Below, in pieces: positions 11,473-41,488 of a DNA stretch of 64,000 nt; position 1 is the stretch's first letter; each line of letters opens with the position of its first letter. Origin of the DNA: a virus. The stretch lies in the IMG/VR virus record IMGVR_UViG_3300035152_000011. The stretch is one strand, 5' to 3'. A program made the position numbers and the translations under genes. The notes below the pieces were generated by a model that saw nothing but the letters and a program-made list of their open reading frames with translations, ran no database searches and was not told the DNA's origin.

Positions 11473-11670
11473 TTACTGCGACTCGTCGCTGCGACGCAAG
11501 GGCTGTTCTTTGCGGCAGCCGCAATGGAAGCGTGGACACTCGTGAGTGGGGCACCAGCCGCAGCCCCAGTGGCCGACCTGGCCAGCGCGATCACAGTCGA
11601 TGCGCTCCTGGCAGTCGCAGGTACCGTCCTCACGGCCGCACCACTTGCAGTAGTAGCCGTTACTCGGCAT
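11473..11670 (-). CDS. Small Cys-rich protein.
   Basis: MPSNGYYCKWCG...CDC...CGWCPTHECPRFHCGC. Confidence 0.4.
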   Translation of the reverse strand: MPSNGYYCKWCGREDGTCDCQERIDCDRAGQVGHWGCGWCPTHECPRFHCGCRKEQPLRRSDESQ

Positions 11671-13615
11671 TACCGTCTCCCCACTTCTTCGTAGAGCGCC
11701 TGACAGACTCCACGAGCGGCTTGTCCTCGGGCCCCTTGACATGCGCCTTCCGCCAGTAGCGAAGCACAGCGAGCCACTCGTCGCGTCCTCGTGGTGCGAT
11801 GTCCCGCTGGTGCAGCTCGACGGCTAGCTCGGCTGGCATTTGTGGGATGCCAGCGAAGATTTGATACTTGCGAGCGCGGAGGTCGGCCTCGACCTCGGGG
11901 TCGATGGGAAGCGAGCCGCGCTTCACGCGAATGTTCCAGGAGCCGCGACAGTGCCAGCGATGCTGCCATTCGATCTCGCGTGAGCTTCTGAGGGTGCGTT
12001 GCTTGTGCTCCTCGATTACTTTGTCCTGAAGGTAGACCGTGTAGAACGGCGGAGGGATAGGCGGGTGGAGCTTCACTTTCTTGGCGGCGCGCGTGACCAT
12101 TCGGTGGTACCCGAAGTCTCGCTTGCCTTCCTCGATCAACGTCTTGTGGTCATTCACGTAGTTGATCATCGTGGTGACGATGAACGGGTGAATGCCTGCG
12201 CCACCTTCAGCGTGGGGATCGGCGCTGATCACCCAACTCCCATTCGCTCTGATGCGCACAGCGGTCAACCCTGTAACTGTCTCTGGTCTCACTGGCTGTC
12301 CCGGCTTGTAGATAGCAACAAAGGCAACCATGTCACCGTCGTCCATCAGCAACGTTGCGAGTAGCCGCGTCTCCTCTTGGTAGAGCGTGTCTTCAGCGCT
12401 GGGACGGGCTTGCACTTCCACACCGGCACCCCACGCGAAGTAGCACGCAGGAAACGGACGCTCTTTCGGCAGCTCGGGCAGATTCGCGATTAGCTGCTCA
12501 GTGAAGCGTTGTGAGAGATCCTCAGTCGATGGCTTTACCTTGAAGTGCTCTTTATCAACTGCCTGCTGGAGCTGCGCGACGAACTGCTGCTCGAACGCTT
12601 CAGCCAAGGTAGAGTAGGCCCTAGCTGGGAATTCAAAGATGACAGCATCGCGGAGCTGTGGCCAGAGTTTGGCCTGATTGAAGCTGGAAGAGATGTTGTC
12701 CTGGACGAGCTGTTGACGGATGAGCAAGTTGTACTCGACGATTTGCTGGTGATCACTGCGCGTCACACGGCGTGCATCACTGTGATCAGCTAGCAGACTG
12801 CGCATGAAGGCCGTTTCGGCTTCTTCCGTCAGGTCAGTGATCGCCAACGGGCCTTGGATCATGCCGTCGTCTTTGAACGGCTCACTCGCGCGTCCACACG
12901 CCAACACCACCGGACCGTGGCCGTCGCTGCCTTTTGGGTACAGAACTACACGGTCAGGAGGGCTTCCCCGCCACACAGATTCACAGCCAAGGATCTCATT
13001 GACAGCCTCTCGTGGCGCGGTTGTTGGGATGTAATCGATGCGCGGTTTGCTCTCTTCGAGCCGCGTGAGTACTCGGAGTGGAACTTCGATCATGCGGTCG
13101 CCGCCGTCATGTAGCGTAAGTTGGCCTTGTCCGCTGTACTCACCGAAAAAGGATTTGGGCGCAGTCGGGACCTGCGCGTCTGGATCCGGTGTAAAGTCTC
13201 CTAGCTCGGTGTCGATCTGGACGGGAATGTCGTCCGCGGACCGCGGGCCGTCCTCAGTGAAACCTAACCAATGCTCTGCCTCGTAATCGAAGCCGTAACC
13301 GTAGTGCTCACACCAGCGTCGGACCTGCGCTCGGACCCGGTGGTAGACCTCCATTCCATCGTCAGCTTTGGTTGCAGTGCGGATACGAATCGGTATGGGG
13401 TGGCGGCGGCGCTCCAGTTCGTCTCGGACTGCGTAGAGCGCGGTCTTGTCTATCTGGCCCTGGTCAGCGAGTGCCATCTTCTCCAGGTAGTCTACGAGTT
13501 GCTGATAGGTCGCGCAGCCGAGCAGATTGAGTGGCAGATCGCCGCCTACAGGCAATCTGCCCGACCTTTTACGGCGCGTCTTTCGACGCTTCTTGGATTT
13601 GCGCCGCTTTGCCAT
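11660..13615 (-). CDS. Large hypothetical protein with a poly-basic N-terminus.
   Basis: 651 aa starting MAKRRKSKKRRKTRRKR; no recognisable catalytic motifs. Confidence 0.5.
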   Translation of the reverse strand: MAKRRKSKKRRKTRRKRSGRLPVGGDLPLNLLGCATYQQLVDYLEKMALADQGQIDKTALYAVRDELERRRHPIPIRIRTATKADDGMEVYHRVRAQVRRWCEHYGYGFDYEAEHWLGFTEDGPRSADDIPVQIDTELGDFTPDPDAQVPTAPKSFFGEYSGQGQLTLHDGGDRMIEVPLRVLTRLEESKPRIDYIPTTAPREAVNEILGCESVWRGSPPDRVVLYPKGSDGHGPVVLACGRASEPFKDDGMIQGPLAITDLTEEAETAFMRSLLADHSDARRVTRSDHQQIVEYNLLIRQQLVQDNISSSFNQAKLWPQLRDAVIFEFPARAYSTLAEAFEQQFVAQLQQAVDKEHFKVKPSTEDLSQRFTEQLIANLPELPKERPFPACYFAWGAGVEVQARPSAEDTLYQEETRLLATLLMDDGDMVAFVAIYKPGQPVRPETVTGLTAVRIRANGSWVISADPHAEGGAGIHPFIVTTMINYVNDHKTLIEEGKRDFGYHRMVTRAAKKVKLHPPIPPPFYTVYLQDKVIEEHKQRTLRSSREIEWQHRWHCRGSWNIRVKRGSLPIDPEVEADLRARKYQIFAGIPQMPAELAVELHQRDIAPRGRDEWLAVLRYWRKAHVKGPEDKPLVESVRRSTKKWGDGNAE

Positions 13616-15694: not shown

Positions 15695-15815
15695 GATTTC
15701 ATCGTCCGCTTCGTGTAGTCCTCAGCCATTCTGCGCAGAGGAAATCGTCTCGATCTGTCGGTCATCGAGCTGACATTCCAAGCGTGCCGTGTCATCGAGC
15801 GGGCTGGACAGAGAT

Positions 15816-17052
15816 GTCTCAATCTGTAAGCCATTGAGCGGGCATTGCGGCGAGACGACGCGAGTACAGTCTCAACCTATTTAGCCGTTGAGCGGGCATT
15901 GCGGTCCAGGCTGTTGGTGGAGAGATCGAACAACAGTCTCAATCTATGAGCCATTGAGCAGGCATTGCGGCTTCGAGCAGACCGTAGCGGTACCAGTCTC
16001 AATCTATGAGCCATTGAGCGGGCATTCCGGCCCAGCCCCGCACACCCAAGACGTACTACCTGCAATCGTCTCAATCTATGAGCCATTGAGCGGGCATTCC
16101 GGCGCGCGCGAGCCGGTGTGCATCGCGGCTCAGCCGGTCGTCTCAATCTATGAGCCATTGAGCGGGCATTCCGGCGGCCTGCTGTCCCCGACGCGTTTTC
16201 GCGACTTCGTCGAGTCTCAATCTATGAGCCATTGAGCGGGCATTCCGGCCTCGTGCAGCTCGTCTCACCGAGACGAGATATACGAGCTGTCTCAATCTAT
16301 GAGCCATTGAGCGGGCATTCCGACGTGCGGCCTTCAGCATCGTCTCGTCGATGGTGGCATGTCTCAATCTATGAGCCATTGAGCGGGCATTCCGGCCGGT
16401 GCGACGGGGTCGAAATCGTCGCTGTCTCAATCTATTCAGCCATTGAGCGGGCATTCCGGCTTGCCGACCGACGCCGAGATTCTCAAGAAGGGGATAGTCC
16501 CAATTTATGAGCCATTGAGCGGGCATTCCGGCGCGATCCGTGCCGGCCATGCGGATGATGAGGTTGAGTCCCAATCTATGAGCCATTGAGCGGGCATTCC
16601 GGCGCAGCGGTCGCTGGGGCACTACTGCGGTGCACAGTGTCTCAATCTATGAGCCATTGAGCGGGCATTCCAGCACGCCCACTTGTAGTAGAAGCCCATG
16701 GAAATCTGCCGTCTCAATCTATGAGCCATTGAGCGGGCATTCCGGCACGAACGGCTGGTCCGTGAGTGCTCGTATGTCATCGGTCTCAATCTATGAGCCA
16801 TTGAGCGGGCATTCCGGCACGAACGGCTGGTCCGTGAGTGCTCGTATGTCATCGGGAAGCACTGTGGAACCTGTCTCAATCTATGAGCCATTGAGCGGGC
16901 ATTCCGGCACCTCGTACGGGCGCTCAACGACGATGCAGGCACTCAGTCTCAATCTATGAGCCATTGAGCGGGCATTCCGGCCCATCCGCGCGGGCAAGCG
17001 GCTCCTTTTCGAGGAAGTCTCAATCTATGAGCCATTGAGCGGGCATTCCGGC
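15816..17052 (-). CRISPR. CRISPR array of 18 repeats (36 bp, consensus GTCTCAATCTATGAGCCATTGAGCGGGCATTCCGGC on the plus strand) and 17 spacers.
   Basis: Direct repeats at 15816, 15869, 15936, 15996, 16068, 16140, 16214, 16289, 16361, 16424, 16497, 16568, 16639, 16711, 16783, 16873, 16946 and 17017. Consensus copies cluster at the 17052 (cas12-proximal) end and decayed copies at the 15816 end, with further remnants back to about 15745. Spacer lengths are 17-54 bp and mostly 35-37. The minus-strand repeat RNA ends in a CUCAAU/AUUGAG hairpin next to the spacer, which fits a type V crRNA read in the same direction as the cas12-like gene. Confidence 0.9.
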
Positions 17053-33804: not shown

Positions 33805-34182
33805 CTACTCGCACGCCTTGCTCGGAAGTAGCAGCCAGTGGTTTGGGTTACCGGAGGTCGTGAACCGAACGAACGTGAATGCTCGCTTGCCGATCTCAAC
33901 CTTGAGTGTCTCGCCATCGACCCACTTGATCAACTTCAGCGTGCCGCGCTCGCGCAGTTCGACGGTGCCAGCACCGCCGTGGCCTTCCTCGATGACGCCC
34001 TCGAAGTCCATGTAGCCCAGCTCGTGGTCTTGGACACGGATTGCGAGCACGGGCCGTGGGTGCTTCTTCATCCCCTTCGGGATGCAGAACGACACGGCGA
34101 TGCCACCATCCTCGAACCGGAAGTCGTCATGCGGCCCGGCGCGCTTCGCAACGTGGTGCTGGATGCAGTACTCACGATTCAT
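33805..34182 (-). CDS. LigD-type 3'-phosphoesterase (PE) domain protein.
   Basis: HHVAKRAGPHDDFRFE...SFCIPKGM...VQDHELGYMDFEGVIEEGHGGAGTVELRERG matches the LigD PE signature (HxHxxxxxHYDxRLE, SWAVPKGP, EDHPLDYxDFEG...GHYGAG). Confidence 0.8.
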   Translation of the reverse strand: MNREYCIQHHVAKRAGPHDDFRFEDGGIAVSFCIPKGMKKHPRPVLAIRVQDHELGYMDFEGVIEEGHGGAGTVELRERGTLKLIKWVDGETLKVEIGKRAFTFVRFTTSGNPNHWLLLPSKACE

Positions 34183-40555: not shown

Positions 40556-41488
40556 CTAGCTGGCCTTCTTCGCGGAGGCCTTCTTTGAGCCCTTCTTCGG
40601 AGCCGACTTCTTCGCAGCTGGCTTCTTCGAGCTGGCCTTCTTCGAGGTCTTCTTGGCAGCGGGCTTCTTGGACTTCTTCGACTTCCCGGCGCTCGGGTCC
40701 TTGGCCTTCGCCGCGCTGAGCATCATGTCCGTGAGGTCCACAGCGCCGAAGGCGGCCTGCGCGTTCGGCGCGGGCGCAGCACTGACGTCGCCTCCGCTGA
40801 CCTTCGCCTCGATCTGCGCCTTCACAGCCGCGGTGTGGTTGTCGAGATGCGCGGCCAGGTCGAAGCTGTCGTTCGAGTACGCGTCGATGAACGTCTGCGT
40901 CGCGGCCAGCTCGGCCTCGGTGTACTCGCAGTCCGGGGCGTCGGCGACCGCAGCGACCTCGCGCACGGCAGCGTCGTAGAACAACGTGTGCAGAAGGAAG
41001 CCGCCCTCGACCGGACGCAACACCGCGAGGTATTCCTTGCCGCGGGTCCGGTATCGACTGACAGCGACACGGCCGCTCTGGAGCAACGCGGTGTGCAGCA
41101 GCCCGTAGGCGCGCTCACCACCCTTGTCCGGGCCGACCACGTAGCTCTTGTCGTAGTACATCGGGTCGATGTCCTGGACGCTCACGAATTCGACGACCTC
41201 GACGCTGTTGCCCTCGACGCCGAAGGCTTTGATCTCTTCGGCGGAGAACTGGACGTACTGTCCCTTGCTGATCTCGTAGCCCTTCACGATCTCGGCGTAT
41301 GCGATCTCCGTATCGCACTCCGGGCAGAAGGTCGGTTGCTTCACGCGGCAGCCGCAGGCGCGGTGTAGTTGCACGAAGCTGATCCCGGCCTTGTTGTCGA
41401 TCAGGGTCATTACCTTCGCGGGAACCGCGAGCAGTCCGCATTGGATCGTCGCGCGGTGAAGGGTCTTGCTCTTGCTGTTGCTCGGCAT
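40556..41488 (-). CDS. ku: Ku (NHEJ DNA-end-binding protein) with a Lys-rich C-terminal tail.
   Basis: ATIQCGLLAVPAKV..., ISFVQLHRACGCRVKQPTFCPECD..., IVKGYEISKGQYV..., VEFVSVQDIDPMYYDKSYVVGPDKGGERAYGLL..., LRPVEGGFLLHTLFY all align with bacterial Ku. The tail reads KSKKSKKPAAKKTSKKASSKKPAAKKSAPKKGSKK. Confidence 0.85.
   Translation of the reverse strand: MPSNSKSKTLHRATIQCGLLAVPAKVMTLIDNKAGISFVQLHRACGCRVKQPTFCPECDTEIAYAEIVKGYEISKGQYVQFSAEEIKAFGVEGNSVEVVEFVSVQDIDPMYYDKSYVVGPDKGGERAYGLLHTALLQSGRVAVSRYRTRGKEYLAVLRPVEGGFLLHTLFYDAAVREVAAVADAPDCEYTEAELAATQTFIDAYSNDSFDLAAHLDNHTAAVKAQIEAKVSGGDVSAAPAPNAQAAFGAVDLTDMMLSAAKAKDPSAGKSKKSKKPAAKKTSKKASSKKPAAKKSAPKKGSKKASAKKAS

What the first reader, a model, noticed from the sequence alone, without database searches (positions are those of the whole stretch)
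15816..17052. Array internals: decayed trailer, a duplicated-and-extended spacer, heterogeneous spacer lengths and a spacer-proximal hairpin
Seen in sequence: repeats nearest the cas12-like gene (17017, 16946, 16873, 16783, 16711) are consensus. Repeats at the far end (15816, 15869, 15936) carry 2-4 substitutions or a 1-nt insertion, with further decayed remnants back to about 15745. This gives polarity (leader side = cas12 side). Spacer 14 (16747..16782, ACGAACGGCTGGTCCGTGAGTGCTCGTATGTCATCG) is repeated exactly as the first 36 nt of spacer 15 (16819..16872), which then carries 18 extra nt (GGAAGCACTGTGGAACCT). Spacer lengths run 17, 30, 24, 36, 36, 38, 39, 36, 27, 36, 35, 35, 36, 36, 54, 37, 35. 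Spacer 7 contains a palindrome CGTCTCACCGAGACGAG. The minus-strand repeat RNA ends ...GCUCAAUGGCUCAUAGAUUGAGAC, a 6-bp stem (CUCAAU/AUUGAG) abutting the spacer, as expected for Cas12 crRNA handles. Inference: the array evolves by recombination or duplication rather than Cas1-Cas2 acquisition, which fits the absence of adaptation genes.
Basis: seen in the sequence. Interest (0 to 1): 0.6.

Follow-up and report, generated by a model that had tools for sequence, protein, structure and literature searches.

The report
Phage Cas12m-type CRISPR array, worn tail
This is a real CRISPR array belonging to a small phage-borne Cas12m-like protein; its duplicated spacer, odd spacer lengths and decayed far end are ordinary wear, and the evidence points to new units being added next to the gene rather than to duplication alone.

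Summary
There are 18 repeats of 36 nt at 15816-17052 plus a remnant at 15747-15779. The spacer lengths are as stated, and spacer 16747-16782 recurs as the first 36 nt of the 54-nt spacer 16819-16872.

The adjacent 531-aa gene (17025-18620, minus) is a divergent Cas12m (type V-M) relative. Its RuvC triad is fixed as D-K-D, and close relatives were found only on viral contigs.

The repeat RNA on the gene strand forms a 6-bp hairpin and a 3-bp pseudoknot helix, then ends in AC. Both helices covary across related loci and match published Cas12m crRNA.

The gene side is the young end. The effector stop codon lies inside repeat 1, so there is no leader. The three far-end repeats carry the variant that a 97%-identical relative has in its first repeat.

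No Cas1, Cas2 or Cas4 was found in the window or beside 13 related loci. Duplications, truncations and mosaic arrays recur in relatives.

However, spacers are almost all unique, cluster at 35-39 nt, and are never shared between loci. "Duplication rather than acquisition" is therefore not supported; acquisition in trans is more likely. No protospacer was found. Interest is moderate to low.

The parts
17025..18620 (-). 531-aa Cas12m-like effector gene with a D275-K404-D485 RuvC triad and a C-terminal CxxC...CxxC zinc ribbon
   Evidence: Profile A1 against the PDB gives Cas12m 23vw_A at E 9e-41 over the full length and Cas12m2 at 4e-23. The AF2 model has pLDDT 85. Foldseek top hits are Cas12m2 8hhl (E 1e-20) and GoCas12m 8pm4, then TnpB and Cas12f. 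PADLOC gives Cas12u1 at E 3.7e-34. The triad comes from the alignments.
15747..17052 (-). Whole CRISPR array: 18 repeats and a terminal remnant, read from the gene side (17052) down to 15747
17017..17052 (-). Repeat 1. It overlaps the last 28 nt of the effector ORF, and the stop codon TAG (17025-17027) lies in the hairpin loop. There is no leader.
   Evidence: The same overlap occurs in L001, L003 and L004. No sigma-70-like promoter or terminator was found between gene and array.
16711..17016 (-). Gene-proximal block: the three gene-proximal spacers (35, 37, 54 nt) and the 36-nt duplicated spacer, with four consensus repeats (16946, 16873, 16783, 16711)
16819..16872 (-). 54-nt composite spacer. 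On the RNA strand it is 18 nt of unrelated sequence (AGGUUCCACAGUGCUUCC, 16872-16855), placed next to the repeat handle, fused to a full copy of the neighbouring 36-nt spacer.
16747..16782 (-). 36-nt spacer that is duplicated inside the 54-nt spacer
16289..16674 (-). Mid-array repeats with point changes (16289, 16639), a 1-nt loop insertion (16424) and an A-to-G change (16497, 16568) that keeps the stem as a U.G wobble on the minus-strand RNA only. The 27-nt spacer 16397-16423 also lies here.
15816..15971 (-). Trailer: three repeats sharing the GCCGC variant, one with a compensatory stem change (CUCAAC/GUUGAG at 15869), separated by short spacers of 30/31 and 17 nt
   Evidence: The variant equals repeat 1 of the 97%-identical relative L021.
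15972..15995 (-). 24-nt spacer between the last consensus repeat (15996) and the first trailer repeat (15936)
15747..15779 (-). Terminal repeat remnant GGAAUGUCAG-CUCGAU-GACCGACAG-AUCGAG-AC. The stem is still paired and matches the L001-type stem.
16259..16277 (.). 8-bp palindrome with a 3-nt loop inside the 39-nt spacer 16250-16288. It is probably a property of the unknown target.
   Evidence: the spacer folds at -17.8 kcal/mol, and 4% of shuffled arrays reach an 8-bp stem.
18636..19391 (-). 251-aa upstream gene with weak winged-helix matches, co-directional with the effector and conserved next to it only in the closest relatives. Its link to the system is uncertain.
   Evidence: below cut-off. 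Homologues occur in L019 and L021 but not in L001-L018.

Best explanation
The region is the CRISPR array of a phage-borne type V-M-like system that has no adaptation genes of its own. The array is read on the minus strand as a continuation of the effector gene's transcript, because the gene's stop codon sits inside the first repeat. Each 36-nt repeat gives the 5' handle of a crRNA. The handle is a small pseudoknot: GCC at -28..-26 pairs with GGC in the loop, a 6-bp hairpin follows, and the handle ends in AC. The spacer comes directly after it. By analogy with characterised Cas12m proteins, only the first 17-20 nt of each spacer serve as guide. The effector (RuvC D-K-D) most likely binds its DNA target and blocks transcription or replication without cutting. 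No tracrRNA is needed. The array grows at the gene-proximal end, where each new unit copies repeat 1. This is most likely done by an integrase supplied in trans by the host or a co-resident element. The array ages toward the far end, where repeats mutate (keeping the helices where selection still acts) and the dispensable 3' parts of spacers get trimmed. Local accidents are superimposed on this. One repeat-spacer unit was duplicated, and a 54-nt deletion (half a spacer plus a repeat), or an equivalent event, produced the 54-nt composite spacer. Its first 18 nt can still act as a full guide. Shown here: the anatomy, homology, covariation, polarity, absence of cas1/2/4, and recurrence of the same patterns in relatives. 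Inferred: transcription, the processing site, guide length, binding without cleavage, and acquisition in trans.
For: Cas12m membership rests on full-length profile and fold matches and the PADLOC Cas12u1 hit. The effector gene is immediately followed by an array in L001, L003-L005, L007-L013, L016 and L017 and in two annotated records; where measured, the gap runs from -28 to +42 nt in most loci and is 150-190 nt in L009 and L010. For the hairpin, 98.1% of 264 cells are paired, 5 of 6 pairs change on both sides, 0 of 500 shuffles reach this, and slid controls give 26-37%. For the pseudoknot helix, 96.6% of cells are paired and all 3 pairs change on both sides. The registers match those published for PmCas12m (-28..-26 with -17..-15; -23..-20 with -6..-3; a handle of about 33 nt plus a guide of about 17 nt; bioRxiv 10.64898/2026.03.26.714355) and the G:A pair plus C(-1) of Cas12m2 (PMC10442227). 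Strand support is modest but consistent: 259/264 cells pair on the gene strand against 253/264 on the opposite strand, and the 3' AC is conserved. No anti-repeat beyond chance lies within +-4 kb. The D-K-D triad is fixed in about 35 close relatives, while wider relatives are mostly DED, NDD or NED. All tested Cas12m proteins bind but do not cut (PMC11013384). For polarity, the proximal repeats are pristine, the distal ones decayed, short spacers sit distally in 6 arrays, and the L021 first repeat equals the window's trailer variant. No Cas1, Cas2 or Cas4 was found. Spacers are unique and not shared between loci.
Against: No protospacer was found for any spacer in the window, the related loci, the phage and plasmid collections, IMG/VR or JGI contigs. 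The PAM, the targets and even the use of the guides are therefore unverified. There are no expression data. The polarity argument from L021 rests on one nucleotide and needs a reversal, because more distant relatives have G at that position. No donor of Cas1-Cas2 is known, and no cellular genome among 185,579 species representatives carries the effector. Apart from one 527-nt MAG contig, none carries an array with this repeat core. The array comes from a metagenome assembly, and a second assembly of the same gene (L019) shows it collapsed, so individual units could be misjoined.
Confidence: 0.72

Rival explanations
1. One reading: the array is closed to new spacers and changes only by duplication, deletion and recombination among existing units, because the phage has no Cas1-Cas2.
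For: There is a duplicated spacer and a composite spacer here. Duplicated spacers also occur in L010, L017 and L001, and L016 is a mosaic array. No adaptation genes lie in the window or beside 13 relatives.
Against: Duplication and recombination cannot create new sequence. Nearly all spacers are unique, their lengths cluster at 35-39 nt, and none is shared between any two loci. The trailer repeats carry the first-repeat variant of a 97% relative, which fits addition at the gene end.
Confidence: 0.12
2. The polarity reflects expression rather than age. Units near the start of the transcript are used most and are kept intact by selection or gene conversion, while distal units drift. On this view the decayed end says nothing about where spacers enter.
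For: The array has no leader of its own and appears to be co-transcribed with the gene. Stems in the distal repeats are partly maintained by compensatory changes, so selection does act along the array.
Against: This does not explain why the three trailer repeats share one derived base with repeat 1 of L021. It also does not explain the complete spacer turnover between relatives. It is compatible with proximal acquisition rather than an alternative to it.
Confidence: 0.1
3. Part of the internal structure, such as the duplicated unit, the 54-nt spacer or some short spacers, is a metagenome assembly artefact caused by mixed array variants in the population.
For: A Logan contig from run SRR11713591 encoding the identical effector joins repeat 1 directly to the 24-nt spacer and the trailer, which is a collapsed array. 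Contigs of relatives break at repeat 1 (L020, L021).
Against: Gene calls on an independent JGI contig show the same 1331-nt distance between effector stop and the next gene. Repeat plus spacer plus repeat (108 nt) is shorter than common read lengths. The same kinds of irregularity occur in many independent assemblies and in a GenBank phage record.
Confidence: 0.06

Closest known systems
Type V-M CRISPR-Cas12m (MmCas12m2, GoCas12m, PmCas12m)
   Same: The effector is homologous over its full length and has the same fold. It uses crRNA only. The 36-nt repeat has two helices and a 3' AC. It has no adaptation genes. The RuvC triad is non-canonical, and the family is known for binding without cleavage (PMC10442227, PMC11013384).
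   Different: Sequence identity is only about 20-27%. The protein has 470-530 aa instead of about 600, and the REC coiled-coil region is shortened and carries CxCxxC..H motifs. The D-K-D triad is not among the triads listed for the four described clades (HEK/HQK, HDD, DED/NED, DED/DND/NED) or the N-D-D variants tested (PMC11013384). The ORF runs into the first repeat. Close relatives were found only on viral contigs.
MvCas12m of myxophage lineage MV-1 (bioRxiv 10.64898/2026.09.14.751636)
   Same: It is a phage-encoded Cas12m next to an array, with no cas1/2/4 and no tracrRNA, and no protospacers were found.
   Different: That protein has 610 aa and an intact D-E-D triad. I did not compare the sequences directly.
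Virus Rctr197k (KX853510) and Allomeiothermus silvanus plasmid pMESIL02 loci
   Same: Both carry 24-25% identical homologues followed within a few hundred bases by arrays with the same stem-loop-AC repeat design. Rctr197k shows the same pattern of pristine proximal and decayed distal units.
   Different: The proteins are larger (about 536-620 aa), are annotated only as 'similar to transposase' or 'zinc ribbon protein', and are uncharacterised.
CasPhi (Cas12j) systems of huge phages
   Same: These are compact phage-borne type V effectors with an array, no adaptation module and no tracrRNA.
   Different: They belong to a different Cas12 family (Foldseek E about 4e-7 against 1e-20 for Cas12m) and have an active RuvC that cuts DNA.
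TnpB with its omega RNA
   Same: The guide-RNA scaffold starts inside the 3' end of the protein-coding gene. TnpB is the next-best structural match after Cas12m.
   Different: Here there is an array of 18 guides rather than one. No transposon ends or TnpA were seen, and the catalytic triad is altered.
Type IV-A3 plasmid systems that acquire spacers in trans
   Same: This is a system on a mobile element without an adaptation module whose array still gains spacers, using the host integrase (PMC11656645; bioRxiv 10.1101/2023.06.23.546257).
   Different: It is a Class 1 multi-subunit effector. Its repeat compatibility with a host I-E system is demonstrated, whereas no compatible host system is known here.

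Membership tests
CRISPR array (generic) | Three or more near-identical direct repeats of 23-55 nt separated by unique spacers of similar length | tested here: met
   There are 18 repeats of 36 nt. 13 of the 17 spacers are 35-39 nt long, and all are unique except one duplicate.
CRISPR array (generic) | Degenerate terminal repeat at the end away from the leader | tested here: met
   Repeats at 15936, 15869 and 15816 are mutated, and a remnant lies at 15747-15779.
CRISPR array (generic) | Non-coding, usually A+T-rich leader with a promoter upstream of repeat 1 | tested here: not met
   Repeat 1 overlaps the effector ORF by 28 nt, and no promoter-like site was found.
Type V-M (Cas12m) | Effector homologous to Cas12m over WED, REC, RuvC and the zinc-ribbon (TNB) domain | tested here: met
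   The profile gives E 9e-41 to 23vw_A across profile positions 8-471 of 494. Foldseek gives E 1e-20 to 8hhl. PADLOC gives Cas12u1 at 3.7e-34.
Type V-M (Cas12m) | RuvC triad altered from D-E-D in many members, with DNA binding but no cleavage | tested here: inconclusive
   At the sequence level the triad is D275-K404-D485, fixed in about 35 relatives. D-K-D is not one of the published triads. Cleavage cannot be tested here.
Type V-M (Cas12m) | crRNA handle with two helices (an upstream triplet paired to the loop, plus a hairpin at -23..-3) ending in A(-2) C(-1) | tested here: met
   Covariation supports both helices. G(-24), G(-3) and A(-2) are invariant and C(-1) nearly so. The registers match those described in 10.64898/2026.03.26.714355 and PMC10442227.
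Type V-M (Cas12m) | No tracrRNA | tested here: met
   The best anti-repeat match within +-4 kb scores 9.5, against a mean of 9.9 and a maximum of 13 for shuffled queries. There is no Rfam hit.
Type V-M (Cas12m) | No cas1, cas2 or cas4 in the locus | tested here: met
   No such Pfam family appears among 93 window ORFs or among 135 ORFs around 13 related loci. Only the 25 best families are listed in each case.
Type V-M (Cas12m) | 5' T- or C-rich PAM next to protospacers | not testable with these tools
   No protospacer was found.
Type V-M (Cas12m) | Arginine-rich coiled-coil REC insertion ('roof') contacting the PAM-distal heteroduplex | tested here: inconclusive
   The family lacks about 35-45 residues aligned to that region and has CxCxxC..H motifs instead. 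The model confidence there is only 58-71.
TnpB / omega RNA (OMEGA) | Single guide RNA whose scaffold overlaps the 3' end of the gene and ends at a transposon right end, usually with TnpA nearby | tested here: not met
   Overlap of the scaffold with the ORF is present. However, there are 18 guides, and no Y1 or serine transposase family appears among the window ORFs.
Type V-F (Cas12f) | Cas12f-family effector that needs a tracrRNA | tested here: not met
   One PADLOC model labelled Cas12f scores the same as Cas12u1. Structure and profile searches nevertheless rank Cas12m far above Cas12f (1e-20 against about 5e-10), and no anti-repeat exists.

The most novel reading that the evidence does not exclude
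The stop codon of the effector lies in the loop of the first repeat. Characterised Cas12m proteins cut pre-crRNA near the 5' end of the repeat. Each maturation of the first crRNA would therefore sever the effector mRNA upstream of its stop codon. That would give a TnpB-like self-limiting circuit, and it would mark this D-K-D phage clade as a living intermediate in which the array arose by serial duplication of an omega-RNA-like 3' end of the gene. In the strongest form of this reading, new units are added at that junction by a route that does not use Cas1-Cas2.
Probability: 0.12. Interest if true: 0.7.

Novelty: new variant of a known kind. Interest (0 to 1): 0.38.

Why it matters
The array features that prompted the finding are ordinary. 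Decayed terminal repeats, duplicated units and trimmed spacers are known from many CRISPR arrays, and type V-M systems are known to lack adaptation genes.

The modest gain is the context. The window carries a compact clade (470-530 aa) of Cas12m relatives that has so far been found only on viral contigs. It has a fixed D-K-D RuvC site, a handle whose two helices covary, and no leader, because the gene runs into the first repeat.

These arrays nevertheless turn over completely and show a polarity consistent with addition at the gene end. That makes them a compact test case for an open question: how do arrays without their own integrase obtain spacers? The small size of the protein could also interest people who build DNA-binding tools.

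Tried and rejected
- **Protospacer searches.** All 18 spacers were run against the masked window and the fetched loci, and the whole array against the phage and plasmid collections. The only result was one chance-level hit (E 0.4). Exact 22-23-mers of four spacers were searched in IMG/VR and JGI contigs with no hits. The 158 spacers of relatives were run against the window and loci with no hit above chance.
- **More arrays with this repeat.** Three exact-pattern scans found none in IMG/VR or JGI contigs. A degenerate scan of GTDB genomes gave 21 loci, about the number I estimated from chance. One 527-nt contig (L041) held a related array.
- **Array comparison between near-identical genomes.** L019 is a collapsed assembly. 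L021 and L020 end in repeat 1. The JGI contigs could not be read. L001/L002 are identical across the effector and array.
- **Thermodynamic support for the hairpin.** This was rejected as evidence, because the repeat folds no better than shuffles.
- **tracrRNA.** No anti-repeat was found.
- **Rfam and promoter/terminator scans.** Neither found anything relevant to the array.
- **Second Cas12f-like PADLOC match in the window.** It was not located among ten large ORFs and was not pursued.
- **The palindrome as a functional element.** This was not supported, because 4% of shuffles reach the same stem length.
- **Block duplication in L017.** The two duplicated spacer pairs are each five units apart, but the spacers between them differ, so a block duplication was rejected.

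Full report
**Observation.**
- A 36-nt repeat (+ strand GTCTCAATCTATGAGCCATTGAGCGGGCATTCCGGC) occurs 18 times between 15816 and 17052, with a 33-nt remnant at 15747-15779. It occurs nowhere else in the window on either strand.
- The five copies nearest the gene are exact, and the three farthest carry 2 to about 5 substitutions, one of them also a 1-nt insertion.
Spacer 16747-16782 is repeated exactly at 16819-16854 and followed by 18 extra bases.
- Three refinements apply. Five mid-array repeats are also mutated. The repeat alone folds no better than shuffled sequence in either orientation. The 8-bp palindrome at 16259-16277 is matched in 4% of shuffled arrays.

**The neighbouring gene.** ORF 17025-18620 (minus, 531 aa) gets only a sub-threshold Pfam match to the Cas12f1-like TNB domain, but stronger evidence places it in the Cas12m family.
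- A profile of it and 26 homologues matches a solved Cas12m (23vw_A) at E 9e-41 over nearly the full length, and Cas12m2 at 4e-23.
- An AlphaFold model (pLDDT 85) finds Cas12m2 and GoCas12m first, then TnpB and Cas12f.
- PADLOC calls it Cas12u1, the old name for V-M.
- The RuvC positions are D275, K404 and D485. The lysine replaces the RuvC-II glutamate in all of about 35 close relatives. More distant relatives are mostly D-E-D, N-D-D or N-E-D.
- Published Cas12m clades have other altered triads, and every tested member binds DNA without cutting (PMC10442227, PMC11013384).
- Close relatives are few (29 by word-indexed search) and none carries a functional name beyond 'hypothetical protein'; a fragment of the window's own protein cluster is labelled 'transposase'. 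None was found in 185,579 species-representative genomes, while 18 loci were found on IMG/VR viral contigs of 13-245 kb.
- The window carries replication and repair genes (ThyX, UvrD, Ku, a LigD domain, a ligase, PARP, an integrase) and no Cas1, Cas2 or Cas4. The flanks of 13 related loci also lack adaptation genes.

**The repeat RNA.** In L001, L003-L005, L007-L013, L016 and L017 the effector gene is followed at once by an array on the same strand.
- On that strand every repeat has a G, then a 6-8-bp stem, a loop and the return stem, and nearly all end in AC. The stem sequences differ between loci.
- On 44 distinct repeat ends, 98.1% of cells pair and 5 of 6 pairs change on both sides. No shuffle reaches this, and slid controls give 26-37%.
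- A second helix pairs -28..-26 with loop positions -17..-15. It also covaries: 96.6% of cells pair and all three pairs change on both sides. L016 and L017 were left out of this test because they have a longer stem and a short loop.
- These registers are the ones reported for PmCas12m crRNA, whose mature form is a handle of about 33 nt plus a guide of about 17 nt (bioRxiv 10.64898/2026.03.26.714355). The terminal G:A pair plus C(-1) matches Cas12m2 (PMC10442227).
- Within the window, mutated repeats keep the stem. The copy at 15869 has CUCAAC/GUUGAG, the remnant has CUCGAU/AUCGAG, and the copies at 16497 and 16568 have a U.G wobble that pairs only on the minus-strand RNA.
- No anti-repeat was found.

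**Polarity.** The effector stop codon TAG lies in the loop of repeat 1.
- The ORF overlaps the array by 28 nt here and by 3-27 nt in L001, L003 and L004. More distant loci have gaps of only 22-42 nt.
- There is no leader and no promoter-like site, so co-transcription with the gene is the simplest reading (inference).
- Short and irregular units lie at the distal end in the window, L001, L003, L007, L013 and L016, and in the GenBank phage Rctr197k.
- A relative with a 97%-identical effector (L021) has GCCGCAAUGCCCG... as its first repeat. In the window that variant is found only in the three trailer repeats.
- The most economical history is that these were once the gene-proximal repeats, and that 15 newer units carrying a changed repeat 1 were added in front of them.
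- The caveats are that this rests on one base and implies a reversal relative to more distant relatives.

**How the array changes.** Rearrangement is real.
- Duplicated spacers occur here and in L010 (adjacent pair), L017 (two pairs) and L001.
- L016 is a three-layer mosaic of two repeat types.
- The 54-nt unit is best read as a duplicated repeat-spacer unit followed by loss of half a spacer plus a repeat. An odd 72-nt duplication inside an originally long spacer cannot be excluded.
- On the RNA strand the foreign 18 nt sit next to the handle. If guides are about 17 nt, this unit still encodes a complete guide and the embedded duplicate is silent.
- The same logic explains why the spacers trimmed to 17-31 nt in this array persist (inference).
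- Rearrangement cannot be the whole story. Spacers are nearly all unique, cluster at 35-39 nt and are never shared between loci, including the 75% relative. New sequence must therefore enter, presumably through an integrase acting in trans, as shown for type IV-A3 systems (PMC11656645).

**What remains unknown.** No protospacer was found anywhere I could search, so targets and PAM are unknown.
- Spacer G+C (61%) resembles that of the window (63%).
- The array could not be compared with that of a near-identical genome. One assembly is collapsed, others stop at repeat 1, and the JGI contigs with the same 1331-nt gap could not be read.

**Comparison and novelty.** The system works like type V-M and passes the tests I could run for membership: homology, fold, handle, no tracrRNA and no adaptation genes.
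- It differs in size, in the D-K-D triad, in the REC region and in the gene-repeat overlap.
- Phage-borne relatives are not unprecedented. V-U1-like effectors were reported in landfill viromes (PMC12607003), and a 2026 preprint describes a phage Cas12m. The GenBank phage Rctr197k already carries an unrecognised homologue next to an annotated CRISPR.
- The array internals themselves are ordinary.

Noticed in passing
window 17017-17052: The effector's last nine codons and its stop codon are encoded by the first repeat. In relatives the ORF ends inside repeat 1 in at least two different reading frames, giving C-terminal tails such as ...PPEC or ...NAS-PAA. Processing of the first crRNA could therefore remove the stop codon from the mRNA.
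   Followed up: partly
window about 18303-18449 (effector residues 58-105): The window protein has three tandem CxCxxC..H(H/W) motifs where relatives have one and classical Cas12m has a coiled coil. This may be a zinc-binding replacement for the REC 'roof'. Model confidence there is low.
   Followed up: no
window 19728-21293: A 521-aa protein has the WGR, PARP regulatory and PARP catalytic domains in the order seen in eukaryotic PARP1/2. It lies two genes upstream of the effector and is conserved in L019 and L021.
   Followed up: no
window 40556-41488, 33805-34182, 22572-23573, 22033-22512: The same element carries Ku, a LigD 3'-phosphoesterase domain, an ATP-dependent ligase and a PolX thumb domain. 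Together these look like an end-joining repair set.
   Followed up: no
window 11660-13615: A 651-aa ORF downstream of the array has no match in Pfam, NCBIfam or PADLOC. It is conserved in the JGI contig with the same gene order.
   Followed up: no
L016 7242-9580: This array is a mosaic. It has 15 pristine repeats of one type, then about 11 of the type used by its 92%-identical relative L017, then 4-5 decayed repeats resembling the first type, with spacers of 13-82 nt.
   Followed up: partly
L041 1-340: A 527-nt contig binned in a Leptospirillia MAG holds five repeats, GTGTTTGAAGCCYGCTCAATGGCTTGGTAATTGAGAC. They have the same stem as the window repeat. This was the only cellular-genome record with such an array.
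   Followed up: no
L043 (KX853510 112351-114219 and 110803-112317); L044 (NC_014214): A GenBank phage (Rctr197k) and a plasmid of Allomeiothermus silvanus encode 24-25% identical homologues annotated as 'similar to transposase' and 'zinc ribbon domain-containing protein'. Each is followed by an array of the same design.
   Followed up: partly
L019 6220-6500: A Logan assembly encoding the identical effector joins repeat 1 directly to the 24-nt spacer and the trailer, dropping 14 units. This is a warning that array content in such assemblies can be collapsed.
   Followed up: partly
JGI sample 3300042731 contigs (no DNA held): Gene calls on the near-identical contig list only a 166-aa C-terminal piece of the effector, and in one copy it is named 'transposase'. 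Annotation-based surveys would therefore miss this system.
   Followed up: no
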